A stretch of 33,580 bases of DNA from Acidimicrobiia bacterium (lineage in GTDB: Bacteria; Actinomycetota; Acidimicrobiia; Spongiisociales; UBA5794): assembly GCA_041608535.1 (NCBI GenBank), contig JBFISM010000024.1:1-33580 (forward strand). The letters run 5' to 3'. Both the position numbers and the translations under genes were made by a program. The notes under the pieces are model-generated. The model was not told where the DNA came from and made no database searches. It was given only the letters and a program-made list of their open reading frames with translations. Positions 5,200 to 30,976 of the stretch are shown here, in pieces; position 1 is the stretch's first letter, and each line of letters opens with the position of its first letter.

Positions 5200-5212
5200 G
5201 AGGAAGTCGCTG

Positions 5213-6480: not shown

Positions 6481-6791
6481 GCGATCTCGTCGTCACTCCC
6501 GGCTGGTACATGGCGTTGGCGGCGGCACTGTTCGTCATCGGTGGGAGTGGGGTGCTGCTGCGCCGCAATGCGCTCATCATGTTCATGTCGATCGAGCTGA
6601 TGCTGAACTCGGTCAACCTCACGTTCGTTGCCGCCGGTCGCCAGCTCGGATTGCTCGAGGGACAGATCTCCGTGTTGTTCGTGATGGTGGTTGCCGCCGC
6701 CGAGGTCACCGTTGGGCTGGCCATCATCATCGCGGTCTTCCGCAAGCGGGCCACCGCCTCCGTGGATGCGCTCGCCGGGATGCGAGGCTGA
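6477..6791 (+). CDS. nuoK: NADH-quinone oxidoreductase subunit K
   Basis: GTG at 6477 overlaps the nuoJ TGA. The 105-aa product carries the NuoK/ND4L signature [29 protein letters not shown]...[12 protein letters not shown]. Confidence 0.85.
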
Positions 6792-6792
6792 C

Positions 6793-10208: not shown

Positions 10209-10226
10209 GTGGAGAGCGTGGAGTAG

Positions 10227-15200: not shown

Positions 15201-15321
15201 GACTCACCCCTCTGGTGCTGACCCTCTGGCTGTCGAGGCCCCCTGAGCGCGCCGCTCAGGCCCGCAAAGGGTACACCCATTGGACGTCGCGAGCGACGTC
15301 GGTCTTACGGGAAACACCGGG

Positions 15322-16419
15322 TCAGATCGTCCGCACCAGCAGCGGAACCCGCCGTTCCTCGGCCGTCAGGCCCCCGTGGTTGCCGATCATCCGGTCGTCG
15401 CTGTGCTTGTGCAGGAGGAAGAATCCATCGTCGGCGACGAGTACGCCGTCGGGAAGCCGCTCCGGATGGCGGAAGCCCCGTGGTGCCGGGCCCCACCAGT
15501 GCCGCATGTCATCGACCGGCACCCAGGTGGCGGGCACGGTGCCGGCGATGGCCGCTCCGTCGCCCTTGACGAACATCACCCTGCCGTCCCCGTAGAGAAT
15601 CCGTCCGTCGTGGAGCGAGCGGGGGATTCGTATCTGGCGCTCCTTGGGGAAATCGACATGCCCGTGGTCTGCGGTGCCCACCAACGTCGCATCCGGCGGC
15701 ACCTGCCACGACAGAGCCGACCACACGTTGTCGACCACCCGGATTGCGCCGGCATACTCGGGGGTGCGCTGGCCGTGGACGTGGGCTGCGTAGTCGACAT
15801 TCGCCACGTACGTGAGGATCAGCCGTCCCGGTGCGGACGCCAGGTCGGCGGTGGCCGAGATCAGCTCGCCGATCGTGGTCACTCCCTCGAACCGGCACCC
15901 CCGGTAGAGCAGACGAGTCAGGCTGCTGGTGCGGAAACCCTCCGGTTGCACCGTCACCGTCTCGACACCGGCCGCGGCGAGCCGTTCCCACAGGTTGGGG
16001 GCAGGGAGGAAAGCGGTTGTGTCGTAGTCGAGCGGGTCGCCCCACAGCGTGGTCCACTTGATGGTGTTGGCGACCACGTCGAGTTCCGGAATCCACAGCT
16101 GATATCCGAAGAGACCGTGCTGGGACGGTGGCATGCCGGTGGCGATGGTGGCCAAGCTCACCGTGGTGGTGGTCGGAAACGGGGCATCGAGCTCGGCGAC
16201 CTTGGATGCACCGAGCGTGGCGGCCCCAGGGTGATCCACCTGGGCGGCGCCCAGGCCGTCGAACACCACGAGGACGACCGTCTGCCCGGGGGTCAGCAGC
16301 GACCGCAAGCGTTTGTCGAGGCGTGGAGCCGGCGCGGCTCCGGCAAGGCGAAACTCCAGCTCCGCAACCAGGTTCAGCAGCGATCCACCGTCATAATCGG
16401 GGGCCGCCGCAGCCGTCAT
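15322..16419 (-). CDS. Alkaline-phosphatase-superfamily protein (type I phosphodiesterase / nucleotide pyrophosphatase-like)
   Basis: Motifs VVLVVFDGLGAAQ (metal-ligand Asp region), TVSLATIATGMPPSQHGLFGY, DHGH and IGNHGGLT are typical of AP-core phosphodiesterases/phosphatases. The ATG at 16419..16417 has no obvious RBS, so the transcript may be leaderless or short-leader. Confidence 0.7.
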   Translation of the reverse strand: MTAAAAPDYDGGSLLNLVAELEFRLAGAAPAPRLDKRLRSLLTPGQTVVLVVFDGLGAAQVDHPGAATLGASKVAELDAPFPTTTTVSLATIATGMPPSQHGLFGYQLWIPELDVVANTIKWTTLWGDPLDYDTTAFLPAPNLWERLAAAGVETVTVQPEGFRTSSLTRLLYRGCRFEGVTTIGELISATADLASAPGRLILTYVANVDYAAHVHGQRTPEYAGAIRVVDNVWSALSWQVPPDATLVGTADHGHVDFPKERQIRIPRSLHDGRILYGDGRVMFVKGDGAAIAGTVPATWVPVDDMRHWWGPAPRGFRHPERLPDGVLVADDGFFLLHKHSDDRMIGNHGGLTAEERRVPLLVRTI

Positions 16420-16440: not shown

Positions 16441-16468
16441 TTGAGGGCCATACCCGCCTTCCTATACT
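16441..16468 (+). promoter_or_regulatory. Putative sigma-70-type promoter for the nuoA2 operon: TTGAGG, a 16-nt spacer, then TATACT
   Basis: In the 93-nt divergent intergenic region, TTGAGG (16441-46) is followed 16 nt later by TATACT (16463-68). That is about 45 nt upstream of the nuoA2 ATG. The inverted repeat CTCGCCC-c-GGGCGAG (16467-16481) overlaps the -10 element and TSS. Confidence 0.35.
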
Positions 16469-16512
16469 CGCCCCGGGCGAGGGCTGCACCCAATGAGAGA
16501 GGTCACTACGTG

Positions 16513-16899
16513 ATGGATTCGTATCTGGGGGACTACATCACGGTCGCCGTTTTTCTGGCGGTTGGGGCGCTCCTCGTTGGCGGCGGGATCTTCGCTTCCT
16601 CCCTGCTCCGGCCCGACAAACCCTCCCGGGTGAAGTCCGAATCGTACGAATGCGGCATCGATCCGGTCGGTGGGGGCTGGTCGCAGACCCAGATCCGGTA
16701 CTACATCTTCGCCTTGCTGTTCCTCATCTTCGACATCGAAGCCGTCTTCATCTTCCCGTGGGCGATCAAGCTGGAGGACTTCTCGGCACCTGCGGTGGGC
16801 ATGGGTGGTTTCGTGCTCGTCGAGATGGTGATCTTCATCGCCATCCTCGTCGTCGGTTTGGTCTACGCCATCCGCAAAGGGGTGCTGCGGTGGGAGTGA
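16513..16899 (+). CDS. nuoA: Complex I-like subunit A (second operon)
   Basis: ATG at 16513, with GTG at 16510 also possible. It lies 11 nt after the GAGAGAGG RBS. NuoA/ND3 motifs: [43 protein letters not shown]. Confidence 0.85.
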
Positions 16900-17387
16900 T
16901 CGAGAAGTTCGGGGTTCCCAAGCCTGTGTCGTGGCTTCTCAACTGGTCTCGCAAGTATTCGCTGTGGTTCTTCCAGTTTGGGCTTGCGTGCTGCGCCATC
17001 GAGATGATGGCGGCTTCGGCTCCTCGCTACGACTTCATGCGTTTCGGGATCATCCCACTGCCGGCATCCCCCCGGCAGGCCGACCTGATGGTGGTGGCCG
17101 GCACCGTCACCGACAAGATGGCTCCTGCGGTCCGCAGGCTCTACGACCAGATGCCCGAGCCGAAATACGTGATCTCCATGGGTTCGTGCTCGAACTGCGG
17201 CGGTCCCTACTGGGATTCGTACTCGGTGACCAAGGGCGTCGATCAGGTCATACCCGTCGACGTCTACGTTCCCGGGTGCCCACCCCGCCCCGAGGCGCTG
17301 ATGGAGGGCATCGTGCTGCTTCAAGAGCAGATCATGAATGAAGACGTACGCGAGAAGTGGACCCAGCGTGACCGACAGCCCGTCTGA
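16896..17387 (+). CDS. nuoB: Complex I-like subunit B (N2 [4Fe-4S] carrier, second operon)
   Basis: GTG at 16896 in a GTGA overlap with the nuoA2 stop; GTG at 16890 is also possible. The N2-cluster Cys ligands are all present in [24 protein letters not shown] and VYVPGCPP. Confidence 0.85.
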
Positions 17388-18027
17388 AACGAGCACCGCC
17401 GAGGAAGGCACCGCAGCGACGCCGGAGGACACCGCAGGCGATGAGCTGCTGGCCACGGCCGAGCGGCTCGCCGCGCGCGTCGGATCCGAGCACTTCACTG
17501 CCGATCTCGGGACCGTGAAGATCACCGTCGACCGGGACGGCTGGGTGGGCGCCATCACCACGCTGCGCAGCGAGTTGCCGTTCTTCTCCTGGCTGTCTGC
17601 GGTGGATTGGGCGCAGGAGGTCGCAGTCGGCGAGCCGGCGGAGAACGCCGAGGAGCTGGAGGAGCGCTACGAGGTGATGTGCCGCGTCTCCTCGGTGACC
17701 GATGCTTCGGCCGCCATCGTCAGTACCACGCTCTCCAAGGACGACGCCTGGATCGATTCGCTCGTGCCCTTCATCGCCGGCGCGGAGTGGCACGAGCGGG
17801 AGGCCGCCGAGATGTTCGGCATCGACTTCCGCGGCAACCCCAACCTGACACCGCTGTACCTGCCCGACGGTTTTGTCGGGCACCCGCTGCGCAAGTCGTA
17901 CCCGTTGCTCAGCCGTGAGGTCAAGCCGTGGCCGGGCACCGTCGACGTCGAGGGTATGCCGGATGAGGAGGGTGGCGACGAAGCTGCCGGCGCCCCGTCG
18001 ACGACGAACCCCGAGGCCGGCGTATGA
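17338..18027 (+). CDS. nuoC: Complex I-like subunit C (30 kDa, second operon) with an acidic low-complexity N-terminal extension
   Basis: Conserved NuoC core ([13 protein letters not shown]...[25 protein letters not shown]). The ATG at 17338 overlaps nuoB2 by 50 nt. The alternative GTG at 17368 gives a 20-nt overlap. The N-terminus [23 protein letters not shown] is low-complexity. Confidence 0.8.
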
Positions 18028-19232
18028 CCCAGCTCGACGAGGCCAGGATCGACCCGCGAACGGCGATGCATCTGTCCGAGGCAGCTGTCTCTGTCGAGCT
18101 GGAGACACCCGACATGACCCTCAACATCGGGCCACAGCACCCGTCGACCCACGGGGTGCTCCGGCTCGTCGCCAGAGTCGATGGCGAGCGGGTGGAGGAG
18201 GTCGAGCCGGTCATCGGCTACATGCACCGTGGCTACGAGAAGCTGGCAGAGGTGCGCACCTACGCCCAGACGATCGCACTGGTCAACCGAATCGACTGGG
18301 TCTCCGGCTTTGCCAACGAGATTCCCTTCGTGGTTGCCGTGGAACGGCTCACGGGTATCGAGCCCCCGGACCGGGCGCAGTACATCCGTCTCATTCTCAC
18401 CGAGATGGCCAGGATCGCGTCGCATCTCGTCTTCATGTCGTCGTACCCGCTCGAGCTGGGCGCCGCCACACCCCTCATGCATGCGCTGCGCGAGCGGGAA
18501 CGGGTGCTCGAGCTCATCGAGAGCGTCACCGGGGGCCGCTTCCATCCCAATTTCAACCGGGTGGGCGGGGTCAAGCCTGTATACGGTGGCGGATCGAGCA
18601 CGAAGAAGCAGAGTCAGGATCTCCCGGCAGGTTTTCTCCAGGGCACCCGTGATGCCATGGAGAAGATCATGGCGATCACAGACGATCTCGACCAGCTCGT
18701 GACCGGGAACGAGTTGATCCAGGCCCGCACGGTCGGAGTCGGTGTCATCCCGGCCGACAGAGCGCTCGAGTACGGCCTGTCGGGACCGAACCTGCGCGCC
18801 TCCGGGGTCAATTTCGACCTCCGCAAACACGAGCACATCCTCCCGTACGCCAACTTCGACTTCGAAATCCCGCTTGGCTCCAACGGCGACTGCTACGACC
18901 GCTATGTGGTTCGTAACGAGGAGATCCGCCAGAGCGCCCGGATCATCCAGCAGGCCGTCGATGGCATTCCCGCGGGCCCGCTCCAGGCGAAGGTTCCTCG
19001 CATCCTCAAGGTTCCCGTCGGTGAGACCTACGTTCGCGCCGAGAACCCGAAAGGCGAGATGGGCTATCACGTCATCTCGCAGGGAGGACGCATCCCGTAC
19101 CGGGTGAAGATCCGCTCGGCCTCGTTCTCCAATCTCTCGATCCTGCCGTGGATCCTGGAGGGACAGCTCATCCCCGATCTCGTCGCAATCATGGGCAGCC
19201 TCGATTTCGTCCTGGGCGACGTGGACAGGTAG
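18024..19232 (+). CDS. nuoD: Complex I-like subunit D (49 kDa, second operon)
   Basis: ATG in an ATGA overlap with the nuoC2 stop. The 402-aa protein has NIGPQHPSTHGVLRLV and the conserved quinone/N2-proximal IGYMHRGYEKL (Arg codon at 18228-30). Confidence 0.9.
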   Translation: MTQLDEARIDPRTAMHLSEAAVSVELETPDMTLNIGPQHPSTHGVLRLVARVDGERVEEVEPVIGYMHRGYEKLAEVRTYAQTIALVNRIDWVSGFANEIPFVVAVERLTGIEPPDRAQYIRLILTEMARIASHLVFMSSYPLELGAATPLMHALRERERVLELIESVTGGRFHPNFNRVGGVKPVYGGGSSTKKQSQDLPAGFLQGTRDAMEKIMAITDDLDQLVTGNELIQARTVGVGVIPADRALEYGLSGPNLRASGVNFDLRKHEHILPYANFDFEIPLGSNGDCYDRYVVRNEEIRQSARIIQQAVDGIPAGPLQAKVPRILKVPVGETYVRAENPKGEMGYHVISQGGRIPYRVKIRSASFSNLSILPWILEGQLIPDLVAIMGSLDFVLGDVDR

Positions 19233-19246
19233 GGGGCGGGTACATC

Positions 19247-20269
19247 GTGGAACTCAACTTCTGGCTGGCGCTGCTGCTCAAGGTTGCACTCATTCTGGGC
19301 GTGATGCTGCCGGGTGCTCTCGTGATCATCTTCGGCGAGCTGAAGATCTCGGCTCACATGCAGAGCCGCATCGGTCCGTACTTCGCCGGGGGCCGTTTTG
19401 GCTGGGCGCAGCCGCTCGCCGACGGGCTCAAGTTCATGCAGAAAGAGGATCTCGTACCGGCGCAGGCCGACGCCACGGTCTACAAGCTGGCGCCGTATGT
19501 GGTCATGATGGGGACGCTGGCCACCTTCGTCATCATCCCGTTCGGGCCCGATCTCGTGGCGGAGAACCTCGATCTCGGTGTGTTCTACCTGCTCGCGGTG
19601 TCGTCGCTGTCGACACTCGGGGTGCTCATGGCCGGCTGGTCCTCGGGCAACAAGTACTCGCTCATCGGAGGCCTGCGCGCCGCGGCACAGCTCATTGCCT
19701 ACGAGCTGCCGCTGGTGCTCGCCGTCGTGGGGGTCGCCATCATGGCCGGGACCCTTTCGCTCAATGGCATAGTCGAGGCGCAAGCGGAGTGGCGCTGGTT
19801 CGACGTCGCCCCCGAGTGGATCAACATCATCCCGCCGTACCTGATCCTGCAAGGTGCCGGGTTTGCGATCTTCGTCACCGCCAGCCTCGCCGAGCTGAGC
19901 CGGATCCCTTTTGACATGCCCATTGCGGAATCGGAGCTGACGATGGGCTACCTCACCGAGTACTCGGGTCTCCGGTTCACCATGTTCTTTCTCGGCGAGT
20001 ATGCCGGGATGGTCGCGATGTCGGCGGTCGCGGCCACCCTGTTCCTCGGTGGCTACTGGCTTCCGTTCGTCTCCGAAGACGCCCTCAACTTCCTCGGCCC
20101 GGTCGTGCTGCTCACGAAGGTGGGGCTGCTCGCCTTTGTGTTCATCTGGTTCCGGTGGACCTTCCCCCGGCTGCGCGAGGACCAGCTGCAGAGCCTCGCC
20201 TGGAAGTGGCTCATCCCGGCTGCCCTGGTCAACATCGTCGTGACCGCAACCGTGAAAGTGTTGGTGTGA
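19247..20269 (+). CDS. nuoH: Complex I-like subunit H (second operon)
   Basis: GTG at 19247 lies 7-9 nt after the GGGGGCGGG RBS. The N-terminus [21 protein letters not shown] matches NuoH. It has the NuoH motifs [11 protein letters not shown] and [27 protein letters not shown]. The upstream in-frame extension (19148-19246) overlaps nuoD2 and is Arg/Gly junk. Confidence 0.88.
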
Positions 20270-20273
20270 AGCG

Positions 20274-20759
20274 ATGACGATGACGAACCGCCGACCCAAC
20301 ATCTCCATACCCGTCAAAGGCTTGATGCGGGGGTTGGCCCTCACCCTGAAGACACTCTTCACCAAGCCGGTCACGGTCAACTACCCCCTGGTCAAGGAGG
20401 TTCCGGTCCCTCGCGCCAGGGGCGTGATCGCACTCGATCCCGAAGCGTGCACCGTGTGCATGCTGTGCGCCCGGGAATGTCCGGACTGGTGCATCTACAT
20501 CGAGGGACACAAGGAGGAGGTTCCCCCCGCCAAGGAGGGGGGCCGGGTGCGCACGCGGGCCACACTCGATCGGTTCGACATCGACTATGCGCTGTGCATG
20601 TACTGCGGGATCTGCGTGGAGGTGTGCCCGTTCGATGCGCTCTTCTGGAGCCCCGACTACGAGTACTCCGAGTACGACATCAGCGAGATGCTGCACGACC
20701 AGAACCGGCTCACCGACTGGCTGAAGACGGTCCCCGAGCCGCCCCCGCTGGAGACGTAG
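20274..20759 (+). CDS. nuoI: Complex I-like subunit I (2x[4Fe-4S], second operon)
   Basis: 161 aa. The cluster motifs are [12 protein letters not shown] and [12 protein letters not shown]. It has no C-terminal extension, unlike first-operon NuoI. Confidence 0.9.
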
Positions 20760-21314
20760 ATGACGGTCGGCGACTTCTTCACCACGACCGAGAACTGGGT
20801 GTTCCTGCTCATCGCACTCCCGATGCTCTTCGCCGGATACAAGGTGGTGACTACGAACAACGTGGTCCACGCCGTCCTGGCTCTCGTGGGTGCGCTCGCC
20901 GGTTCGGCAGCGCTGTTCGTGCTGCTCGGGGCGGAGTTCGTGGCGTGGACTGTCGTGCTCATCTCGATCGGCGCCGTCATCGTTCTGTTTCTCTTCGGAA
21001 TCATGATCACCAGGGCGCCGATCGGGCTCGAGGTCGATCTCAGCCATCCCCGGAGCGCGAGGATCTCGGCGGCGGTGGCATCGGGCGGTCTCTTCGTCTT
21101 GCTCGGCTCGGCCATGCTCGCTGAGTTCGGTGACGAGGTGATTCCAGAAGCGGCCGATGCCACCCGTACGGATGCGCTGGGGCTGCTGCTCTTCCAACGC
21201 TATGTGGTTCCTTTCGAAGTGGTCTCGGTCGTGCTGCTGGCGGCTCTGATCGGAGGCATCGTCATCGCACGGCGTGATCCCAGTCCGGACGAACCGGCAG
21301 GGACCAGGCTCTGA
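20760..21314 (+). CDS. nuoJ: Complex I-like subunit J (second operon)
   Basis: ATG immediately after the nuoI2 TAG (TAGATG). The 184-aa protein is hydrophobic and NuoJ-like. Confidence 0.85.
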   Translation: MTVGDFFTTTENWVFLLIALPMLFAGYKVVTTNNVVHAVLALVGALAGSAALFVLLGAEFVAWTVVLISIGAVIVLFLFGIMITRAPIGLEVDLSHPRSARISAAVASGGLFVLLGSAMLAEFGDEVIPEAADATRTDALGLLLFQRYVVPFEVVSVVLLAALIGGIVIARRDPSPDEPAGTRL

Positions 21315-21619
21315 TGCTTATCAACGGCTTCCTCCTGCTCGGCGCCGCCCTCTTCTCGCTGGGTGTCTACGGCCTCCTCGTGCGCCGTAACGCAGTGCTC
21401 ATCCTGCTGTCGGTTGAGCTGATGGTGGCCGCCGTGAACATCAACTTCGTCGCGTTGGACCGGTTCCTCGGTGACGACCTCGCCGGTGGCCAGGTCTTCG
21501 CCCTCTTCAGCATCGCCGTGGCGGCAGCCGAGGTCGGGATCGGTCTGGCGATCATCCTGCTCGTGTTTCGCAACCGCCAGTCCGCCAACGTCGATGAGCT
21601 GGATCTGATGCGGCTATGA
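21314..21619 (+). CDS. nuoK: Complex I-like subunit K (second operon)
   Basis: ATG overlaps the nuoJ2 TGA (cTGATG). The 101-aa protein has LVRRNAVLILLSVELMVAAVNINFVAL...AAAEVGIGLAIILLVF. Confidence 0.88.
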   Translation: MLINGFLLLGAALFSLGVYGLLVRRNAVLILLSVELMVAAVNINFVALDRFLGDDLAGGQVFALFSIAVAAAEVGIGLAIILLVFRNRQSANVDELDLMRL

Positions 21620-23718
21620 GCCTGCTTGCCGCACTGTCGACGGAAGTGCCCCTGCTGCTGGCCGCGGCAACGGAGGAAGGCGGGCATGCCGAGCTCGGCG
21701 ACGGTGGTGGGCTCGCTGCGGCCGCGTGGCTCATCCCGCTCGTCCCGATGGTGGCCGCTTTCGTCATCGCATTGTTCGGCAAGCACTTCCCGTACAGAGG
21801 GTGGGACATCGCCACGGCGGTGATGGGCTTCGAAGCGGTGTACGGCACCTTCCTGCTCATCGCCCACCTCGCCCGCCCGATCGCCTACGAAGGTGCGATC
21901 GAAATCGCGCGAATCGGGAGCTTCCCCATCGAGTGGGGCTGGGTGGTCGACGGGCTCAGCATCATGATGTACTTCGTCGTCGGTGTCGTCGGCTTCTTCG
22001 TCTTCCTCTACGCCAAGGGCTATATGGAAGGCGACATTCGCTACACGTGGTTCTTCGCCTCGTTCACGCTGTTCGCCGGTGGCATGCTGGTCCTGGTCTC
22101 CGCACCCAACCTCATCCAGCTCATCGTGGGTTGGGAGCTGGTCGGCGTGGCGTCATGGTTGCTCATCGGTCACTACTGGGAGGATCACGCCAACAGCTCT
22201 GCGGCGATCAAGGCGTTCCTCACGAACAAAGTGGCCGACGTGGGTCTCTTCATCGGCGCCATCATCCTGGCCCTGTCCGTCGGGTCGTTCCGTTTCTCGG
22301 ACATCCTCCACGCCGTCGAGGAGGGAGTGCCCGCGCTGGCTCAGTTCGCCTTCTGGGCCGGGCTCGCCGTGTTCATCGGGGCGATGGGCAAGAGCGGGCA
22401 GTTCCCCCTTCATGTGTGGCTCCCCGACGCCATGGCCGGTCCCACTCCCGTGTCGGCCCTCATGCACGCCGCCACCATGGTCACGGCAGGGATCTATCTG
22501 GTGGCCCGTCTCTTCCCGCTGTACCTCACCGAAGGGTTCGCCGATGAAGTGCGCTCGGTGATCATCATCATCGGGGCGCTCACGCTGTTCCTCACCGGGC
22601 TCATCGCACTGGTCCAGGACGACATCAAGAGGGTGCTGGCATACTCGACGCTGTCCCAGCTCGGCTACATGATGGCGGCGCTCGGGGCGGGGGCGTACAC
22701 GGCCGCTCTGTTCCACCTCTTCACCCACGCCTTCTTCAAGGCGCTGCTCTTCCTCGGCGCCGGCTCGGTGATCCATGCGGTGCACTCGAACAACATGTCC
22801 GACATGGGTGGGTTGCGGAAGTACATGCCCTGGACGTTCCGCACGTTCGTCATCGGTGCGCTGGCGCTCGCCGGGATCGCTCCTCTGGCCGGCTTCTTCT
22901 CCAAAGACGAGATCCTCGCTTCGTTCCGCTACGCCGGGAGCGCCGAATCCGGATTCAGTGCGGCGCAGGGTGGCGCCGGGCTCGCCAACATCGTCCTGGT
23001 GCTGGGCATTGCCGCAGCATTCGTGACCGCCTTCTACATGGCGCGGGCGGTGTTCCTCACGTTCTTCGGCGAGTACAAGGGGCACGGCCATCCTCACGAG
23101 TCGCCCGCCGTCATGTGGATTCCGCTGGTGGGGCTCGCCGTCGGCTCAGCGTTCGCCGGCTTCCTCAACGTCCCAGGTGTCACCGAGTTCTTCACCGAGC
23201 TGGTTGGCGGCCGGGCAGTGCCGGTTCTCGATCACCACGCCGAGAGCTTCGATGTCGTCGTGGTGGTGCTGGGTCTCGCCGCCGCGCTGCTCGGCATCTT
23301 CTTCGGCTACCGCATCTGGTATCCCGACAAAGCAACCCAAGCGGAGCGAGACCGGTTCCACGTTCGTGGTCTCTACCCGTTGCTGGAGAACAAGTATTAC
23401 ATCGACGATCTGTACTTCGACGGCATCATCCGTCCGATCCGGGGCCCGGTGGCGGCCGGAGTCAACTGGTTCAACGGCCACGTGATCGATTTCGTCGTCA
23501 ACGGCGCCGGATTCCTCGCCCGTGGGCTCGGCAAGCTCGTCTATGCCTTCGACCAGAACGCCGTCGACGGCGCCATCAACGCCTCGGGCGCCTTCACCGG
23601 TGGGTGGGGGGAGCTGCTGCGCAAGGTACAAACCGGTCGAGTGCAGCAATACGCAACGATGATCGTGGCGGGAACGGTGCTTCTCGTCGCCGGGATCGTC
23701 ATCGCAGGCATCATCTGA
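21616..23718 (+). CDS. nuoL: Complex I-like subunit L (antiporter-like, second operon)
   Basis: ATGA overlap with the nuoK2 stop. The 700-aa protein has VGWELVGVASWLLIGHYW and LHVWLPDAMAGPTPVSALMHAATMVTAGIY, plus a long C-terminal helix region. Confidence 0.9.
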   Translation: MSLLAALSTEVPLLLAAATEEGGHAELGDGGGLAAAAWLIPLVPMVAAFVIALFGKHFPYRGWDIATAVMGFEAVYGTFLLIAHLARPIAYEGAIEIARIGSFPIEWGWVVDGLSIMMYFVVGVVGFFVFLYAKGYMEGDIRYTWFFASFTLFAGGMLVLVSAPNLIQLIVGWELVGVASWLLIGHYWEDHANSSAAIKAFLTNKVADVGLFIGAIILALSVGSFRFSDILHAVEEGVPALAQFAFWAGLAVFIGAMGKSGQFPLHVWLPDAMAGPTPVSALMHAATMVTAGIYLVARLFPLYLTEGFADEVRSVIIIIGALTLFLTGLIALVQDDIKRVLAYSTLSQLGYMMAALGAGAYTAALFHLFTHAFFKALLFLGAGSVIHAVHSNNMSDMGGLRKYMPWTFRTFVIGALALAGIAPLAGFFSKDEILASFRYAGSAESGFSAAQGGAGLANIVLVLGIAAAFVTAFYMARAVFLTFFGEYKGHGHPHESPAVMWIPLVGLAVGSAFAGFLNVPGVTEFFTELVGGRAVPVLDHHAESFDVVVVVLGLAAALLGIFFGYRIWYPDKATQAERDRFHVRGLYPLLENKYYIDDLYFDGIIRPIRGPVAAGVNWFNGHVIDFVVNGAGFLARGLGKLVYAFDQNAVDGAINASGAFTGGWGELLRKVQTGRVQQYATMIVAGTVLLVAGIVIAGII

Positions 23719-23734
23719 CAGGAGGAACCGAGAC

Positions 23735-25312
23735 ATGTTCGACAATGGGCTGGCATTGAGCCTCGTCGTGATCCTCCCGCTCATCGGGGCGGGAGTGGTC
23801 ATGGCCGTGCCCAAGGCAAACGAGTCGGCCCAGAAGATGACGGCGCTCGTGTTCACCGCGGCAGCCTTCGTGCTCTCCGTCGTCCTGGCGATCCAGTTCG
23901 ATTACGGGGACGCGAGCGCGTTCCAGTTCGGCACCGACCTCGATTGGATCGGCGCCATCAACTCCCGGTACCACATCGGGCTCGACGGCATCAGCCTGCC
24001 ACTGCTCGTGCTGTCGACGTTTGTGACGCTGCTGTCAGTGATCTACTCGTGGGAGCACTGGCCCGAGCCGCACAATCCCAAGGCCTTCATCATCCTCATG
24101 TTGGTGCTTGCGACCGGGATGAACGGCACGTTCGTCGCCCTGGACCTGATCTTGTTCTTCGTCTTCTTCGAGGTCGTGCTGCTCCCGATGTACTTCATGA
24201 TCGGGATCTGGGGTGATCGGGCCGAGACCGAGATTCCGGTGTTCAAACGGGTCACGGAGATGCGGCTCTATGCGGCGATCAAGTTCTTCCTGTTCACCCT
24301 GTTCGGCTCGGCGTTCATGTTGCTCGGTTTCCTCGGGCTCTACTTCCGTTCGGGTGACGCCGGCGGGATTCGCACGTTCGACATGCTGGCGCTCAGCGAG
24401 CTGGGTCGGGCCGGGGTGTTCGCCGGGTCTTTCGGGATGTGGGTGTTTGCCGCGCTCTTCCTCGGCTTTGCCGTGAAAGTGCCGATGTTCCCGTTCCACA
24501 CCTGGCTCCCCGACGCCCACACCGCGGCGCCGACCGTCGGCTCTGTGCTGCTGGCGGCGATCCTGCTGAAGCTGGGCACCTACGCCTTCGTACGGATCTC
24601 CCTCCCCATCCTCCCGGAGGCGGCGCAGCGCTGGGCGCCGACGATCGGCATCCTCGCCGTCATCGGGATCATCTATGCCTCGCTGGCGTGTCTCGCCCAG
24701 ACGGACATGAAACGGCTCATCGCCTTCTCCTCTGTCGGCCACATGGGATTCGTCATGCTGGGCATCGCCACGCTCACCGACATCGGGATCAACGCCGCCA
24801 TCATCGGGATGGTGGCGCACGGAGTGATCACCGGGCTGCTGTTCTTCCTCGCCGGGTCGATGTCGCACCGCTACCACACGAGGGAGATGGCTCGGTTGGG
24901 CGGCAACCAGCAGCTCATGCCGATCATGGGGGCCATCCTCGGCTTCACCGCCATGGCTTCGCTCGGATTGCCCGGTCTCGCCGGGTTCTGGGGTGAGTTC
25001 ATGGCGCTGCTCGCATCGTTCAACCCGCTCGAAGGTCTGAGCACCGGGCTGTTCCGCACGCTGATGGTGCTCGGTGCGGTGGGGACGGTGCTTGCCGCCG
25101 GCTACCTGCTGTGGATGCTGCAACGGGTCAACTTCGGCGAGCCCAAGGCCGAGTGGGAGGGCCATCACTTCCACGACGTCGACGGGTACGAGATGGCGGC
25201 GTGGGCACCCATGATCCTCGCCATCATCGCCATCGGCGTGTTCCCGCGTCTCGTGTTCGGGTCCACCAACGACGCCGTCGTCGCTCTCGTCAACGCAGCA
25301 TTCGGGGGTTAG
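23735..25312 (+). CDS. nuoM: Complex I-like subunit M (antiporter-like, second operon)
   Basis: ATG lies 9 nt after the AGGAGG RBS (23720-25). The 525-aa protein has FPFHTWLPDAHTAAPTVGSVLLAAILLKLGTYAFVRIS. Confidence 0.9.
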   Translation: MFDNGLALSLVVILPLIGAGVVMAVPKANESAQKMTALVFTAAAFVLSVVLAIQFDYGDASAFQFGTDLDWIGAINSRYHIGLDGISLPLLVLSTFVTLLSVIYSWEHWPEPHNPKAFIILMLVLATGMNGTFVALDLILFFVFFEVVLLPMYFMIGIWGDRAETEIPVFKRVTEMRLYAAIKFFLFTLFGSAFMLLGFLGLYFRSGDAGGIRTFDMLALSELGRAGVFAGSFGMWVFAALFLGFAVKVPMFPFHTWLPDAHTAAPTVGSVLLAAILLKLGTYAFVRISLPILPEAAQRWAPTIGILAVIGIIYASLACLAQTDMKRLIAFSSVGHMGFVMLGIATLTDIGINAAIIGMVAHGVITGLLFFLAGSMSHRYHTREMARLGGNQQLMPIMGAILGFTAMASLGLPGLAGFWGEFMALLASFNPLEGLSTGLFRTLMVLGAVGTVLAAGYLLWMLQRVNFGEPKAEWEGHHFHDVDGYEMAAWAPMILAIIAIGVFPRLVFGSTNDAVVALVNAAFGG

Positions 25313-25318
25313 CCGGCG

Positions 25319-26836
25319 GTGATCGACTACCACGCCATCGCTCCCGAGATCATCCTCGGTCTCACGGTGCTCGCCGTGCTGATAGTCGATCTGCTGCCGG
25401 TGCCCAAGTACTTCACGGCAGTGGTGGGGCTGCTCGGCCTCGCGGCAACCGTGGTCCCGCTGCTCACACTCGGGTTGTGCGAATCCCTGGCGTTCTGCAC
25501 TGAGACCGGCGACCGCGTCATGTTGGGCAACAGCTACGTCATCGACGATTTCGCTCTCGTCCTCAAGGGACTGTTCTTGGCAGCCACATTCGTGGCCCTG
25601 TTGCTCTCGGTCGGCTACATCGAGGATGACCGTTACTGGCAGGGTGAGTTCTATTTCCTCATGCTCGCTTCGGCGTTCGGCGCCGTGGTGATGGCGTCGT
25701 CTCGCGACCTGTTGACGCTGTTCGTCGGGCTCGAGCTGGTGACCGGGCCGACCTTCCTGATGGCCGGCTGGCGCAAGGGCGATCCGAAGTCGAATGAAGC
25801 TGCGCTGAAGTACTTCGTCATCGGTGTGCTCTCGGCGGCCATCTTGTTGTTCGGGATGTCGCTCGTCTACGGGGTCACCGGTGATCTCACGTTCTCCGGG
25901 ATCCGGGCGGTCACCGCGGCGAGCACCGAGCCGGGCACGCTGTTGTCGATCGGGGTGATCCTCACGCTGCTCGGCTTCGCCTTCAAGGTGTCGGCGGTGC
26001 CGTTCCACTTCTGGACCCCGGACACGTATGAAGGGGCCCCGATCCCGGTGACCGCTTATCTGTCGGTCGTGTCGAAGACGGCCGGGTTCGTCGGGCTGTT
26101 GTCGCTGTGCTATCTCGCCTTCGCCGAGCTGCGAGACCTGTGGGGCCCGATGCTGTGGATCCTGGCAGCCCTGTCGATGACAGTGGGCAACCTCATCGCG
26201 GTCCGTCAGGACGACATCGTCCGGCTCCTCGGGTACTCCTCGATCGCCCAGGGCGGCTTCATCCTGGTGCCCTTTGGGGCGGCGGTGGCTGCCGATCTCA
26301 CCGGCGCGGATCTGGAGCAGATGTTCTTCGCCACGGTGGCCTATCTGGTCATCTATGCGGTGATGAACTTGGGGGCGTTCGCCGTGGTGATCGCCGGCGC
26401 CAACCGCATCAAGAGCACCGCCATCGCCGACTGGGCCGGAACGAGCACCTATGCCCCGGTCCTGGCCGGGTTGCTTGCCCTGTTCTTCGCTTCGCTTGCC
26501 GGCATCCCTCCGATTGCCGGTTGGTTCGCCAAGCTGGCCATGTTCGCGTCGGTGCTGGGTGTCGACAGCGGCTGGGCGACGGTGCTCGCCGTGATCGCTG
26601 TGATCAATTCGGTGGTGGCGTTCTATTACTACGCCAAGGTCATCAAATCGGCGTGGTTCGATCCGGTTCCCGCCGCCATCCCCGCAGCGGAGCTCCGCGA
26701 CACCGATCGCCGAATCGCCCCCTCGCTCAAGCTCGCTCTGGCCCTCACCGCGGTCCTGGTGCTGGTGCTCGGTTTCTACCCTGAACCCGTCGGCCTCCTC
26801 AGCGAAGTCTCCAGTACGTTTGCCAGCGGCTTCTGA
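25319..26836 (+). CDS. nuoN: Complex I-like subunit N (antiporter-like, second operon)
   Basis: GTG at 25319 is 7 nt after the nuoM2 TAG. The 505-aa protein has FHFWTPDTYEGAPIPVTAYLSVVSKTAGF. Stop TGA at 26834-36. Confidence 0.88.
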   Translation: MIDYHAIAPEIILGLTVLAVLIVDLLPVPKYFTAVVGLLGLAATVVPLLTLGLCESLAFCTETGDRVMLGNSYVIDDFALVLKGLFLAATFVALLLSVGYIEDDRYWQGEFYFLMLASAFGAVVMASSRDLLTLFVGLELVTGPTFLMAGWRKGDPKSNEAALKYFVIGVLSAAILLFGMSLVYGVTGDLTFSGIRAVTAASTEPGTLLSIGVILTLLGFAFKVSAVPFHFWTPDTYEGAPIPVTAYLSVVSKTAGFVGLLSLCYLAFAELRDLWGPMLWILAALSMTVGNLIAVRQDDIVRLLGYSSIAQGGFILVPFGAAVAADLTGADLEQMFFATVAYLVIYAVMNLGAFAVVIAGANRIKSTAIADWAGTSTYAPVLAGLLALFFASLAGIPPIAGWFAKLAMFASVLGVDSGWATVLAVIAVINSVVAFYYYAKVIKSAWFDPVPAAIPAAELRDTDRRIAPSLKLALALTAVLVLVLGFYPEPVGLLSEVSSTFASGF

Positions 26837-26887: not shown

Positions 26888-27943
26888 GTGACTCACCTCA
26901 AACCACGCATCGTGGAGCGGATCACGGCTGAGGGGCCGATGGCGTTCGAGGAGTTTCAGCGGCTGTGTCTGTACGACCCGGATGGAGGGTTCTTTGCCAC
27001 CGGGCCGTTGCGGTCCACGAAGAGCGGCGACTTCCTGACCAGTCCGGAGGTGTCCCCGTGGTTTGGGCGGATGCTGGGCAGGTACGTCGCTCAGGTCGAC
27101 GAGCGTTTGGGGCGTCCGGGTGACATCGTCGAGGTGGGCGCCGGCTCCGGCTCGCTTCTCGCAAGCCTCATGGACGAGCTGGGGGAGCGGCCACTGTGGG
27201 CGGTCGAGGTCGCTCCGGCAGCGCAAATCGCATTACGGGAGCTTGGCGATCATGTCCAAGTCGTGGAGAGCATGCACGATCTCCCCAACGCCATCGCGGG
27301 AACGATTCTCGCCAACGAGTTGCTCGACAACCTCCCGGTGGCTCTGGTGCGCTGCGAGGGCGGCAGCTTCTACGAGCAGTGGGTGGAATACGACGGGGAG
27401 TCCTTGGAACTGGTACCCACCCCGATGCGCCCCGCGGTCGCCGAATGGGTCGACATGTACGCGGGACCGGTCATCGACGGTGGGCTGGTCGAAGTGCAGC
27501 TGCAAGCCGCGACCTGGACGAGAGAGGTGCTGGCAAAGCTGGAGCATGGCGCTCTCGTCGTGATCGATTACGGCGGGACCACAGAAGAGCTGGAGCCGCG
27601 TCGTTCTGCGGGAACGTTGCGCACCTATCGGGCGCACCATCTGGGGCCGGATCCGCTTCTCGAGCCGGGTGCCACCGACATCACCGTCGATGTGAACTTC
27701 ACGGCCCTGGCCGACGTCGCCGCTGCGGCGGGCGCAGAGGTGGATGTGGTTCGCCAAGACGACTTCTTGGAAAGGCTCGGATTGCGCACCGTCATCGGCG
27801 AGCTGCGGGGTCGCGAGCTGGAATTGGCCCGCTCTGGAGACGACATGGCGCGGCTGGTGGTCCGCAGCGAGCTGAAGGATGCCGAGACGCTTCTACACCC
27901 CCGTGGTCTCGGCGACTTCCGGGTTCTCATCGCCACGAAGTAG
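26888..27943 (+). CDS. SAM-dependent methyltransferase, MidA/NDUFAF7 family (COG1565, DUF185)
   Basis: GTG at 26888. Diagnostic blocks of the family are the N-terminal FEEFQRLCLYDPDGGFFATG, the SAM-binding IVEVGAGSGSLLASLM, then GTILANELLDNLPVALV, VVIDYGGT and DITVDVNFTAL. Its start lies 51 nt downstream of nuoN2, and it is on the same strand. Confidence 0.8.
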   Translation: MTHLKPRIVERITAEGPMAFEEFQRLCLYDPDGGFFATGPLRSTKSGDFLTSPEVSPWFGRMLGRYVAQVDERLGRPGDIVEVGAGSGSLLASLMDELGERPLWAVEVAPAAQIALRELGDHVQVVESMHDLPNAIAGTILANELLDNLPVALVRCEGGSFYEQWVEYDGESLELVPTPMRPAVAEWVDMYAGPVIDGGLVEVQLQAATWTREVLAKLEHGALVVIDYGGTTEELEPRRSAGTLRTYRAHHLGPDPLLEPGATDITVDVNFTALADVAAAAGAEVDVVRQDDFLERLGLRTVIGELRGRELELARSGDDMARLVVRSELKDAETLLHPRGLGDFRVLIATK

Positions 27944-28354: not shown

Positions 28355-28387
28355 AACCCATGCTCGTGCGCGTTGTGGGGGTGCGCG

Positions 28388-30301: not shown

Positions 30302-30343
30302 CCATGCGGGAACCATGACCAGCCGGTGGGGCGTCTCAATCAT

Positions 30344-30916: not shown

Positions 30917-30976
30917 CGGGCGTTTTCACCGCAGCCGAGCGGGTAGATACCGCCCAGCGAGGAATATCATTTCATC

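What the first reader, a model, noticed from the sequence alone, without database searches (positions are those of the whole stretch)
16441..26836. Second complex I-like operon lacking the NADH-dehydrogenase module (no nuoE/F/G), placed 4.7 kb behind a canonical nuoA-N operon
The window holds two paralogous sets of the membrane and Q-module genes. The first set includes E, F and G, and continues upstream of the window. The second set, A2-B2-C2-D2-H2-I2-J2-K2-L2-M2-N2, has intact N2-cluster ligands in NuoB2 and both 4Fe-4S motifs in NuoI2, but no electron-input module. By established knowledge, such 11-subunit complexes (cyanobacterial and archaeal NDH/Fpo, Campylobacter Nuo) use ferredoxin, flavodoxin or F420H2-linked donors instead of NADH. 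Its donor here is unknown. NuoC2 carries an acidic low-complexity N-terminal extension, and first-operon NuoI carries an acidic Ser/Glu C-terminal tail. Either could be a docking surface.
Basis: partly seen in the sequence, partly recalled or inferred. Interest (0 to 1): 0.55.

Follow-up and report, generated by a model that had tools for sequence, protein, structure and literature searches.

The report
Second, NADH-module-less complex I operon
This Acidimicrobiia contig carries an ordinary 14-gene complex I operon followed by a complete, intact 11-gene complex I-like operon with no NADH-oxidising subunits; this kind of enzyme is known and the same layout has been reported in related bacteria, but its electron donor is still unknown.

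Summary
The window is a whole 33.6-kb contig of an Acidimicrobiia MAG. It carries nuoE'(3' end)-F-G-H-I-J-K-L-M-N, a 4.8-kb spacer that includes minus-strand genes, and then a tightly packed nuoA2-B2-C2-D2-H2-I2-J2-K2-L2-M2-N2.

No second nuoE/F/G exists in the window or within 10 kb of NuoD2 in 80 related genomes. All 11 genes are under purifying selection, and their Fe-S and proton-pump motifs are intact.

This is a NUO11-type complex I-like enzyme, a kind known since 2011. A 2021 preprint already describes the same layout (nuo11 + NDUFAF7 + htpX beside a 14-subunit nuo) in Ca. Actinomarinales, also Acidimicrobiia. So it is a new member of a known kind, and the donor remains unknown.

My analysis adds four points:
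- Nuo2 is an old, separate lineage. NuoD2 is 39% identical to NuoD1 and is of the short type.
- The quinone-ligating Tyr87 of NuoD is invariably Trp in this clade.
- An NDUFAF7-like arginine methyltransferase follows nuoN2. Its expected target Arg is present in NuoD2 but absent from canonical actinobacterial NuoD.
- The sister clade consists of orphan Trp-type NuoD genes paired or fused with the same methyltransferase family in Nocardioidaceae.

The parts
2..391 (+). nuoE1, 3' fragment (129 codons, contains ECLGACGGAP 2Fe-2S motif); contig starts inside the gene
   Evidence: (82% id to NuoE of L161)
388..4144 (+). nuoF1 (388-1680) and nuoG1 (1673-4144): NADH-oxidising N-module of the first, canonical operon
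   Evidence: Pfam; 82% and 74% id to L161 F/G
4141..11744 (+). nuoH1 (4141-5199), I1 (5213-5902), J1 (5899-6480), K1 (6477-6791), L1 (6793-8667), M1 (8664-10208), N1 (10227-11744)
   Evidence: Pfam; starts refined
11728..16419 (.). 4.8-kb spacer. It holds a TM/bactofilin-like gene X395 (11728-12915, +), three Tad-like pseudopilin genes (about 12905-15200, -), and a cytoplasmic NPP/alkaline-phosphatase-superfamily gene 'PDE' (15322-16419, -) that diverges from nuoA2.
   Evidence: Pfam; PDB; PDE(-) upstream of nuo2 in 60 of 61 loci
16441..16468 (+). promoter-like site TTGAGG-16-TATACT, 45 nt upstream of the nuoA2 ATG
   Evidence: It is the only site in 16.8 kb, and the count is not above chance, so position is the only argument.
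16513..16899 (+). nuoA2
   Evidence: PF00507 3e-34; 37% id to NuoA1
16896..17387 (+). nuoB2: N2 ligands CC...C...CPP present; one extra Cys (GSCSNCGG)
   Evidence: PF01058; NF005012 241 bits; sequence; start
17368..18027 (+). nuoC2. The conserved N-terminus VTDSPSE is followed by a variable acidic linker. The conserved C-terminus KPWPGxVDVExMP(S)TENxEA is followed by an acidic tail. The alternative ATG start at 17338 is less likely.
   Evidence: PF00329; orthologue alignment
18024..19232 (+). nuoD2, short type. His43 = Thermus H38. Arg69 (18228-18230) = bovine NDUFS2 Arg85. Trp92 (18297-18299) replaces Thermus Tyr87. Glu144 replaces D139. It has a 13-aa insertion after GGVK and lacks Thermus residues 314-336.
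19247..21619 (+). nuoH2 (19247-20269), nuoI2 (20274-20759, two CxxCxxCxxxCP motifs), nuoJ2 (20760-21314), nuoK2 (21314-21619, both TM Glu present)
21616..26836 (+). nuoL2 (21616-23718, 700 aa with C-terminal lateral-helix region), nuoM2 (23735-25312), nuoN2 (25319-26836): antiporter-like subunits with the conserved TM5 Glu and TM7/TM8/TM12 Lys motifs
   Evidence: NuoL equivalog 619 bits, above cut-off; sequences
26888..27943 (+). COG1565/PF02636 SAM methyltransferase (NDUFAF7/MidA family), 51 nt after nuoN2; probably the 12th gene of the operon
   Evidence: PF02636 1e-38; PDB 4f3n 5e-29 and 5ztz (NDUFAF7 homologue) 1e-14; synteny; pairing and fusion with Trp-type NuoD in other actinobacteria

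Best explanation
Shown:
- nuo2 (16513-26836) is a separately placed, translationally coupled operon. It encodes a complete Q-module (NuoB2, C2, D2, I2) and P-module (NuoA2, H2, J2, K2, L2, M2, N2) of a complex I-like enzyme, with no NADH-oxidising N-module of its own.
- It is a NUO11-type enzyme of an old lineage, distinct from the organism's canonical actinobacterial complex I.
- It is conserved across Acidimicrobiia and is under purifying selection.

Inferred mechanism:
- A low-potential cytoplasmic donor, most likely a ferredoxin, delivers electrons to the exposed cluster N6a of NuoI2.
- Electrons pass N6a, then N6b, then N2 (NuoB2), and reduce menaquinone at the NuoD2/NuoB2/NuoH2 pocket.
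- This drives proton pumping through NuoH2 and the three antiporter-like subunits, as in cyanobacterial NDH-1.
- The quinone site is modified. His is kept, but the canonical Tyr ligand is an invariant Trp. The same change occurs in mutants and in piericidin producers, where it leaves some quinone reduction and gives resistance to Q-site inhibitors.
- The NDUFAF7-like methyltransferase encoded right after nuoN2 probably methylates Arg69 of NuoD2 during assembly of the Q-module, as NDUFAF7 does for NDUFS2 in mitochondria.
For: Gene content and motifs.

Operon structure: junctions overlap or are at most 16 nt apart. nuo2 is separated from nuo1 by minus-strand genes and has a promoter-like site at 16441-16468.

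Conservation: gene order A2..N2 is the same in all 80 D2-centred loci from Acidimicrobiia-type MAGs that extend far enough. dN/dS is 0.02-0.38.

No E/F/G near nuo2.

Separate lineage:
- Set 2 is 25-60% identical to set 1.
- NuoD1 groups with Corynebacterium NuoD, while NuoD2 forms an isolated clade whose next relatives are at most 50% identical.
- NuoD2 aligns in one stretch with the short NuoD/FpoD/MbhL type and lacks Thermus residues 314-336.

Q site: H43, R69, W92, S140, E144 and D394 are invariant in 120 family members.
- Y144F/W/H mutants keep inhibitor-sensitive Q1/Q2 activity (PMC9120487).
- Natural Y87W occurs in piericidin-producing Streptomyces (PMC4758237).

Donor by analogy:
- NUO11 enzymes function without EFG in D. 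hafniense, with ferredoxin proposed there as donor (PMC11238625).
- The ferredoxin-dependent cyanobacterial enzyme is cited in the same paper.

Methyltransferase:
- Family assignment.
- It lies immediately after nuoN2 in 12 of 41 informative loci and within 2.1 kb in 20 of 41.
- Canonical actinobacterial NuoD has HTG, whereas every Trp-type NuoD has HRG.
- Methyltransferase-NuoD gene pairs and one fusion occur in the sister clade.
- NDUFAF7 methylates NDUFS2 Arg85 (PMC3829151).
Against: - No candidate donor gene (ferredoxin, flavodoxin, FpoF-like) is in the window or conserved next to nuo2. Downstream neighbours vary between lineages.
- The genome also encodes NuoEFG a few kb away, so a borrowed N-module is not excluded.
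- Acidic NuoC2 tails would repel an acidic ferredoxin.
- Trp cannot donate the proton that Tyr87 donates in canonical complex I, so the acceptor chemistry might differ.
- The methyltransferase link is absent within 2.5 kb in about half of the loci.
- Nothing here is biochemical.
Confidence: 0.6

Rival explanations
1. Hybrid isozyme. Nuo2 has no donor of its own. Its Q/P-modules dock the single NuoEFG module encoded by nuo1, giving a second NADH:menaquinone oxidoreductase with different quinone-site or pumping properties, for example inhibitor-resistant because of Trp92.
For: - nuo1 and nuo2 lie on the same contig here. nuoN1 is upstream of nuo2 in 15 of 39 loci that have a full 10-kb upstream flank. 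The contig lengths listed suggest that more than a dozen contigs carry both NuoG1-type and NuoD2-type genes.
- Spero et al. note genomes with one nuoEFG and two copies of the rest, which 'could potentially' make two isozymes (PMC4453560).
- A hybrid machine is also suggested for Streptomyces nuo2 (PMC9239103).
- NuoC termini contact NuoG in Thermus and M. smegmatis (PMC3144371; PMC10068793), and NuoC2 has conserved terminal motifs.
Against: - The subunits that would bind NuoG are the most diverged from set 1: I 32%, C 37%, D 39%.
- NuoD2 belongs to the short NuoD type, which it shares with N-module-less enzymes.
- nuo2 is a separate transcription unit.
- NUO11 enzymes elsewhere work without EFG.
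- 24 of the 39 full-flank loci show no nuo1 within 10 kb.
Confidence: 0.2
2. F420H2:menaquinone oxidoreductase (Fpo/Fqo-like). An unlinked FpoF/FqoF-type subunit oxidises F420H2, a cofactor common in Actinomycetota, and feeds NuoI2.
For: - NuoD2 is of the short type also seen in FpoD (single-stretch alignment, 341 bits).
- The actinobacterial F420 metabolism is general knowledge and was not tested here.
Against: - Every Fpo 'exception' model scores far below its cut-off and below the Nuo models (FpoD 341 vs 600, FpoL 372 vs 1050, FpoH 268 vs 475).
- No FpoF/FrhB-like gene is in the window or in conserved flanks.
- No FpoO.
Confidence: 0.07
3. Not a quinone reductase in the canonical sense. Loss of the Tyr87 proton donor means Nuo2 uses another acceptor or works mainly in reverse, with menaquinol plus proton-motive force reducing a low-potential carrier.
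For: - Trp92 is invariant.
- Biochemical data and simulations are taken to show that both His and Tyr must ligate the headgroup for coupled reduction (PMC9120487).
- Trp-type NuoCD also occurs in MAGs assigned to Methanonatronarchaeales and Methanofastidiosia.
Against: - His43, D394, the tandem-Cys N2 site, NuoH2 and all pump residues are conserved.
- Y144W mutants still reduce short quinones.
- Y87W occurs naturally in Streptomyces strains that presumably still rely on that enzyme.
Confidence: 0.1
4. Decaying duplicate or non-functional remnant.
For: None beyond the missing N-module.
Against: - All 11 ORFs are intact here, and the gene order is kept in every related locus that extends far enough among the 80.
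- dN/dS is 0.02-0.38 with dS near 1.
- All catalytic motifs are present.
Confidence: 0.01

Closest known systems
nuoABCDHIJKLMN-NDUFAF7-htpX cluster of Ca. Actinomarinales (TMED189, Acidimicrobiia), next to a 14-subunit nuo (bioRxiv 10.1101/2021.02.01.429150)
   Same: - Same class of bacteria and the same 11-gene order.
- Same NDUFAF7/PF02636 gene after nuoN.
- A 14-subunit nuo lies close by.
- An HtpX/M48 gene is downstream: here at 30977-31849, and directly after the methyltransferase in L001, L012, L039, L047 and L062.
   Different: - Upstream there is a divergent NPP-superfamily gene instead of heliorhodopsin and an iron ABC transporter.
- PadR, a membrane protein, SPFH and an unknown gene are inserted between the methyltransferase and htpX.
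- That report only lists the gene context. It does not mention the Trp92 site or the Arg logic.
NUO11 / 11-subunit complex I-like enzymes of Firmicutes, Chlorobi and others (Moparthi & Hagerhall 2011; Degli Esposti 2015; D. hafniense study 2024)
   Same: - Gene set and order, and absence of NuoEFG.
- No NiFe cysteines in NuoD.
- Tandem-Cys N2 site.
- NuoD2's best NCBIfam model is the short 366-aa NuoD, NF008974.
- Donor unknown.
- Terminal extensions on NuoC, as in Bacillus.
   Different: - NuoD2 is at most 50% identical to any non-actinobacterial representative.
- Tyr87 is Trp. The nearest representatives outside the Trp-type clades (P0125, P0127 and Limnochordaceae P0128) keep Tyr.
- It coexists with, and lies beside, a full 14-subunit operon in an aerobe-type context (a cbb3 oxidase lies upstream of nuo1 in L161).
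Cyanobacterial/chloroplast NDH-1 (ferredoxin:plastoquinone oxidoreductase)
   Same: - 11 core subunits without an N-module.
- Electrons enter at NdhI.
- NdhH is the second-best solved homologue of NuoD2 (328 bits).
- The HRG arginine is present.
   Different: - No NdhS/V/O-type ferredoxin-docking subunits are encoded nearby.
- NdhH keeps Tyr87 and has the segment that NuoD2 lacks.
- Genes form one operon rather than being scattered.
- NdhH, NdhI and NdhF models score below their cut-offs.
Streptomyces coelicolor nuo2 (SCO4599-4608)
   Same: A second nuo cluster a short distance behind the canonical nuoA-N in an actinobacterium; function unknown; a hybrid with nuo1 has been proposed (PMC9239103).
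   Different: The Streptomyces cluster lacks C, D, E, F, G and L and cannot form a Q-module on its own. The cluster here has C2, D2 and L2 and is self-sufficient apart from the donor.
Archaeal Fpo/Fqo (F420H2 dehydrogenase)
   Same: Short NuoD/FpoD type; no NuoEFG.
   Different: No FpoF or FpoO; all Fpo models score far below cut-off.

Membership tests
[quoted passage not shown] | Contiguous nuoA,B,C,D,H,I,J,K,L,M,N genes | tested here: met
   Pfam hits above gathering cut-off for 10 of the 11 subunits; NuoI2 is identified by 4Fe-4S Pfam domains and its position. One strand, junctions at most 16 nt apart.
[quoted passage not shown] | No nuoE, nuoF, nuoG in or next to the cluster | tested here: met
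   tblastn of E/F/G finds only the set-1 copies in the window. No F or G hit in 80 D2-centred loci.
[quoted passage not shown] | NuoD without the NiFe-ligating cysteine pairs (separates it from membrane-bound hydrogenases) | tested here: met
   The N-terminal site reads NRIDWVSG and the C-terminal site reads SLDFVLGDVDR; neither has Cys. NiFeSe_Hases scores only 19 bits, below cut-off.
[quoted passage not shown] | Cluster N2 ligands in NuoB (tandem Cys + 2 Cys) and two 4Fe-4S motifs in NuoI | tested here: met
   [17 protein letters not shown] and PGCPP in NuoB2; two CxxCxxCxxxCP in NuoI2.
[quoted passage not shown] | Works without an N-module (alternative donor) | not testable with these tools
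   Needs biochemistry. NuoEFG of nuo1 are present in the same genome.
Canonical complex I quinone site (Thermus Nqo4 numbering) | His38 and Tyr87 ligate the quinone headgroup; Asp139 partners His38 | tested here: not met
   His is present (H43). Tyr87 is Trp (W92). Asp139 is Glu (E144). All three are invariant in 120 family members.
Canonical 14-subunit actinobacterial complex I (applies to set 1) | nuoA-N with E, F, G; NuoD groups with actinobacterial NuoD | tested here: met
   The window has E'-N. A relative, L161, has all 14 genes. NuoD1 groups with Corynebacterium NuoD.
Fpo/Fqo F420H2 dehydrogenase | FpoF (and FpoO) subunit; subunits reach the NCBIfam Fpo cut-offs | tested here: not met
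   No FpoF-like gene in the window or its flanks. FpoC, D, H, I, J and L all score well below cut-off.
Cyanobacterial NDH-1 | NdhS/V/O ferredoxin-binding accessory subunits; NdhH/I/F equivalog scores | tested here: not met
   The operon has no room for accessory genes (junctions). NdhH scores 358 vs a cut-off of 583, and NdhI 70 vs 302.
Streptomyces-type nuo2 | Truncated set lacking C, D, E, F, G and L | tested here: not met
   C2, D2 and L2 are present. Description of the Streptomyces cluster is from PMC9239103.
NDUFAF7/MidA (COG1565, PF02636) arginine methyltransferase (gene at 26888-27943) | PF02636 domain with a SAM-binding GxGxG motif | tested here: met
   PF02636 scores 134 bits vs a cut-off of 23. 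Motif VEVGAGSGSL is present. PDB 4f3n 5e-29; 5ztz 1e-14.
NDUFAF7/MidA (COG1565, PF02636) arginine methyltransferase (gene at 26888-27943) | Substrate arginine in the HRGxEK motif of the 49-kDa/NuoD subunit | tested here: met
   NuoD2 reads GYMHRGYEK. Canonical NuoD1 of relatives reads GYLHTGMEK. The equivalence with bovine Arg85 rests on my own count of the bovine sequence, recalled from memory.
NDUFAF7/MidA (COG1565, PF02636) arginine methyltransferase (gene at 26888-27943) | Dimethylates that arginine and is needed for assembly | not testable with these tools
   Needs mass spectrometry or genetics.

The most novel reading that the evidence does not exclude
Actinomycetota carry a conserved two-part module: a Trp-for-Tyr87, short-type NuoD together with a dedicated NDUFAF7-like arginine methyltransferase. 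In Acidimicrobiia the module sits inside a full NUO11 operon. In Nocardioidaceae and Kineosporiaceae it survives as an orphan gene pair or a single fused protein outside any nuo operon.

If the module is a functional unit, it defines a previously uncharacterised quinone-site chemistry: an Arg-methylated, Tyr-less site, perhaps tuned to menaquinone or intrinsically resistant to piericidin- and rotenone-class inhibitors. The orphan copies might swap into the canonical complex I. It would also extend NDUFAF7-type complex I arginine methylation beyond the proteobacterial and mitochondrial lineage.
Probability: 0.3. Interest if true: 0.6.

Novelty: new member of a known kind. Interest (0 to 1): 0.35.

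Why it matters
The electron donor of N-module-less complex I-like enzymes has been an open question since at least 2011. This locus does not answer it, and the layout has already been noted in a sister order.

Its value is as a well-defined, class-wide and strongly conserved example that sits beside a canonical complex I in the same genome. That makes Acidimicrobiia a natural system for asking three questions:
- Is the N-module shared between the two complexes?
- What does an invariant Trp at the quinone-ligating position do?
- Does complex I arginine methylation by an NDUFAF7 homologue operate in Gram-positive bacteria?

The methyltransferase-NuoD fusion in Nocardioidaceae is independent genomic evidence for that last link.

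Tried and rejected
- I looked for a donor gene among conserved neighbours. Clustering of all ORFs within 3 kb downstream of nuoN2 in loci lacking the adjacent methyltransferase gave only lineage-specific genes: beta-lactamase-like, GNAT, NUDIX and MoxR/VWA. Upstream, only the NPP-superfamily gene is conserved, and it has no obvious redox role.
- A six-frame scan for further ferredoxin-type Cys motifs found none.
- Rfam found only a tRNA.
- The promoter and terminator scan gave counts at or below chance. The site at 16441-16468 is suggestive by position only.
- The metagenome scan with NuoF1 returned mostly distant phyla because NuoF is so conserved. Only L081 and L082 were close, and L082 was used just to confirm the canonical A-G order.
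- Cluster look-ups gave few organism names for the nearest NuoD2 representatives. The sister clade was identified only through the third protein search.
- I considered Fpo, NDH-1 and Streptomyces-nuo2 membership and rejected each on tested features.
- I did not run structure prediction. Only single chains can be modelled and no coordinates are returned, so neither the NuoG-docking question nor the Trp92 geometry could have been settled.
- Whole-genome presence or absence of nuoEFG in nuo2-bearing genomes could not be tested with the available scans.
- The NJ tree is a distance tree without support values, made from unnamed 50%-cluster representatives. I use it only for the coarse statement that D1 and D2 are not sisters.

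Full report
WHAT IS IN THE WINDOW

The window is GC-rich (63-68%) and is a complete contig. The NuoD2 protein is found at 100% identity on a contig whose longest length is 33,580 bp, and its close relatives are labelled Acidimicrobiia.

Pfam scans of the long ORFs give this layout:
- First, on the + strand: the last 129 codons of nuoE (2-391, with the ECLGACGGAP motif).
- Then nuoF, G, H, I, J, K, L, M, N (388-11744).
- Then a 4.8-kb spacer. It holds a membrane/bactofilin-like gene (11728-12915, +), three Tad-like pseudopilin genes (about 12905-15200) and an NPP/alkaline-phosphatase-superfamily gene (15322-16419), the last four on the minus strand.
- Then, back on the + strand: nuoA2, B2, C2, D2, H2, I2, J2, K2, L2, M2, N2 (16513-26836).
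- Then a PF02636 methyltransferase (26888-27943), PadR, an unknown membrane protein, an SPFH protein, an unknown gene, an M48/HtpX peptidase, EamA and TetR.
- A tRNA lies at 33402-33483.

CHECK OF THE OBSERVATION

- NuoB2 has the tandem cysteines and the two further N2 ligands ([22 protein letters not shown]).
- NuoI2 has [12 protein letters not shown] and [12 protein letters not shown]. A six-frame regular-expression scan finds such motifs only in NuoI1 and NuoI2.
- The conserved Glu and Lys residues of NuoK2, L2, M2 and N2 can be read directly in the translations.
- tblastn with NuoE, F and G of a relative finds only the set-1 copies.

Corrections are small:
- The nuoA2 start is most likely the ATG at 16513, not 16441.
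- nuoB2 starts at GTG 16896 and nuoH2 at GTG 19247.
- nuoC2 most likely starts at GTG 17368, because the peptide VT(D/S)SPSE that begins there is the conserved N-terminus of the orthologues.
- Gene junctions overlap or are at most 16 nt apart, which fits translational coupling.

The only sigma-70-like site in 16.8 kb lies at 16441-16468, just upstream of nuoA2. The number of such sites is not above chance, so this is a positional hint only.

IS IT REAL AND FUNCTIONAL?

A scan of one genome per species returned 80 loci, nearly all labelled Acidimicrobiia or Acidimicrobiaceae. A few carry other bin labels. NuoD2 identity is 73-86%.

Mapping the window's proteins onto them shows:
- The order B2-C2-D2-H2-...-N2 is the same in every locus that extends far enough.
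- The NPP-superfamily gene lies divergently upstream in 60 of 61 informative loci.
- nuoN1 lies upstream in 15 of 39 loci with a full 10-kb flank.
- No NuoF or NuoG hit occurs anywhere in these loci.

Pairwise dN/dS against three relatives is 0.02-0.38 for all 11 genes, with dS about 0.7-1.5.

THE FIRST OPERON IS CANONICAL

A NuoG1 orthologue (74% identity) lies on the same 2.37-Mb contig as locus L010. Its neighbourhood (L161) shows nuoA-B-C-D-E-F-G-H-I-J-K-L-M-N, preceded by a geranylgeranyl-reductase-like gene and cbb3-type oxidase genes, and followed by the X395-like and Tad-like genes. L161 overlaps L010, which continues into nuo2. A more distant contig (L082) has the same A-G order.

RELATIONSHIP OF THE TWO SETS

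Set 2 against set 1 identities:

| Subunit | Identity |
|---|---|
| A | 37% |
| B | 60% |
| C | 37% |
| D | 39% |
| H | 41-42% |
| I | 31-32% |
| J | 25-30% |
| K | 53-55% |
| L | 42% |
| M | 42-44% |
| N | 34-36% |

- A search of 1.84 billion cluster representatives shows that the NuoD2 family collapses into essentially one 50% cluster (representative 69% identical). The next full-length relatives are at most 50% identical.
- In a neighbour-joining tree of those representatives, NuoD1 groups with Corynebacterium NuoD. NuoD2 sits elsewhere with a small sister group. This is a distance tree without support values, so it is used only coarsely.
- NuoD2 aligns in one piece with the short 366-aa NuoD model NF008974, with FpoD, and with MbhL and the MBS subunit. 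It aligns in two pieces with Thermus Nqo4, NdhH and TIGR01962, because it lacks Thermus residues 314-336.
- By NCBIfam bit score it is Nuo-like (451, 427) rather than NdhH-like (358) or FpoD-like (341). All Fpo models are far below their cut-offs.

So nuo2 is not a recent duplicate that lost E, F and G. It belongs to the old N-module-less lineage.

A MODIFIED QUINONE SITE

The alignment to Thermus Nqo4 has no gaps around the active-site motifs.
- His38 is kept (H43).
- Tyr87 is Trp (W92, NRIDW).
- Asp139 is Glu and Thr135 is Ser.
- Asp401 is kept.

All of these are invariant in 120 family members. Among 130 aligned sequences, almost all of them cluster representatives, 95 have Tyr and 18 have Trp. 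The Trp group is the NuoD2 clade, its sister clade and a few archaeal NuoCD from MAGs.

The literature treats His and Tyr as the two proton-donating ligands of the quinone. It also reports considerable inhibitor-sensitive Q1/Q2 activity for Y144F/W/H mutants of Yarrowia (PMC9120487). Degli Esposti notes that piericidin-producing Streptomyces naturally carry Y87W, a change that in mutants severely lowers decylubiquinone activity and gives strong inhibitor resistance (PMC4758237).

The substitution therefore has a precedent and is compatible with a working enzyme. Its invariance in a whole class is still a real departure from the canonical site.

THE METHYLTRANSFERASE

The gene 51 nt after nuoN2 is a PF02636/COG1565 protein (134 bits). 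Its solved relatives include the Dictyostelium NDUFAF7 homologue. NDUFAF7 dimethylates Arg85 of NDUFS2 during complex I assembly (PMC3829151).

By my own count of the bovine sequence, recalled from memory and not a tool result, that arginine is the R of LLHRGTEK. NuoD2 reads GYMHRGYEK. NuoD1 of relatives and Corynebacterium NuoD read GYLHTG(M/I)E, as does Thermus. In this genome the expected substrate therefore exists only in NuoD2.

The gene lies immediately after nuoN2 in 12 of 41 informative loci and within 2.1 kb in 20 of 41.

Independent support came from the sister clade. Its members are NuoD-like genes of Aeromicrobium, other Nocardioidaceae and a Kineosporiaceae MAG. In four of five neighbourhoods examined they are not in a nuo operon.
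- In three of them the gene sits directly behind a PF02636 gene in the panC-folK region.
- In one contig the two are a single 692-aa fusion.
- The fifth neighbourhood (L166) shows no PF02636 gene. The NuoD reading frame there is split into two calls, which suggests assembly errors.

These orphans share Trp92, the HRG arginine and the 25-aa deletion with NuoD2.

NuoC2 TAILS

Across the class, NuoC2 has two conserved terminal peptides:
- N-terminal VT(D/S)SPSE, followed by an acidic linker of 7 to more than 250 residues.
- C-terminal KPWPGxVDVExMPSTENxEA, followed by a further acidic tail.

NuoC termini contact NuoG in Thermus and in M. smegmatis (PMC3144371; PMC10068793). Moparthi and Hagerhall already suggested that NuoC extensions in NUO11 enzymes contact partner proteins. 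The acidic tail of NuoI1 differs in L161 and belongs to the other complex.

WHAT IS KNOWN

- 11-subunit complex I-like enzymes are widespread, including in actinobacteria. No common partner protein has been found (PMC3144371; PMC4758237).
- In D. hafniense the enzyme is needed for growth on cytoplasmic donors, and ferredoxin is the favoured donor (PMC11238625).
- Spero et al. note genomes with one nuoEFG and two copies of the rest.
- Streptomyces nuo2 lacks C, D, E, F, G and L and is thought to form hybrids.
- Most directly, a 2021 preprint on heliorhodopsins describes in Ca. Actinomarinales an 11-subunit nuo operon followed by NDUFAF7 and htpX, with the 14-subunit operon close by.

The present locus is another member of that arrangement.

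VERDICT

- The kind is known and the specific layout has been reported in the same class. I file it as a new member of a known kind.
- Best mechanism (confidence about 0.6 overall): a self-contained ferredoxin-type-donor:menaquinone oxidoreductase and proton pump with a Trp-modified quinone site, assembled with the help of an operon-encoded arginine methyltransferase.
- Main rival (about 0.2): the N-module of nuo1 is shared between the two complexes.
- No donor gene could be identified.
- The Trp92/Arg69/methyltransferase module and its orphan or fused relatives in Nocardioidaceae are the parts most worth following up.

Noticed in passing
L162 7597-11143; L164 9000-11203; L165 5562-9143; L163 4519-6597: Orphan NuoD-like genes (380-400 aa) occur in Aeromicrobium, other Nocardioidaceae and a Kineosporiaceae MAG. 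They have Trp at the Tyr87 position, the HRG arginine and the same 25-aa deletion as NuoD2. They lie outside any nuo operon, directly behind a PF02636 (NDUFAF7-like) methyltransferase in the panC-folK region. In L163 the two are fused into one 692-aa protein.
   Followed up: partly
window 26888-27943: An NDUFAF7/MidA-family methyltransferase lies 51 nt after nuoN2. Its expected target arginine is in NuoD2 (GYMHRGYEK), while canonical actinobacterial NuoD reads HTG.
   Followed up: yes
window 18297-18299 (NuoD2 Trp92): The quinone-ligating Tyr87 (Thermus numbering) is Trp, invariant in 120 family members. The same change is described as natural in piericidin-producing Streptomyces.
   Followed up: yes
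window 15322-16419 (-): A cytoplasmic NPP/alkaline-phosphatase-superfamily gene lies divergently upstream of nuoA2 in 60 of 61 related loci, about 90 bp from it. No link to complex I is known.
   Followed up: partly
window 11728-12915 (+): A membrane protein with a weak bactofilin-like repeat region overlaps the end of nuoN1 by 17 nt. A homologue follows nuoN1 in 19 of 39 relatives with a full flank, so it may be the 15th gene of the first operon.
   Followed up: partly
window 12905-15200 (-): Three Tad-like (TadE/TadG) pseudopilin genes lie between the two nuo operons. They are present in only 5 of 39 relatives, so they are probably an insertion in this lineage.
   Followed up: no
window 28013-31849: PadR, an acidic membrane protein (28373-29005), an SPFH/Band-7 protein, an unknown gene and HtpX/M48 form a membrane-quality-control-like group. 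In L001, L012, L039, L047 and L062 the M48 gene follows the methyltransferase directly, as reported for Actinomarinales.
   Followed up: partly
window 16896-17387 (NuoB2): The third N2-ligand motif carries an additional cysteine (GSCSNCGG, versus GACASTGG in NuoB1 of L161).
   Followed up: no
L005 (NuoC2 orthologue): The N-terminal acidic Glu/Ala/Pro-rich linker of NuoC2 is about 250 residues there, against about 25 in the window. The C-terminal acidic tail is also repeat-expanded in L005, L036 and L040.
   Followed up: no
L038, upstream of the NPP-superfamily gene, minus strand: Weak hits (27-42% identity) to NuoA, H, K, L and M suggest a third nuo-, Mrp- or hydrogenase-like membrane cluster next to nuo2 in that genome.
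   Followed up: no
L161 6615-8051: The canonical NuoD1 of a relative is 478 aa, with an acidic N-terminal extension of about 95 residues that is absent from Thermus Nqo4.
   Followed up: no
window 33402-33483 (+): A tRNA gene (Rfam RF00005, 54 bits) lies near the contig end.
   Followed up: no
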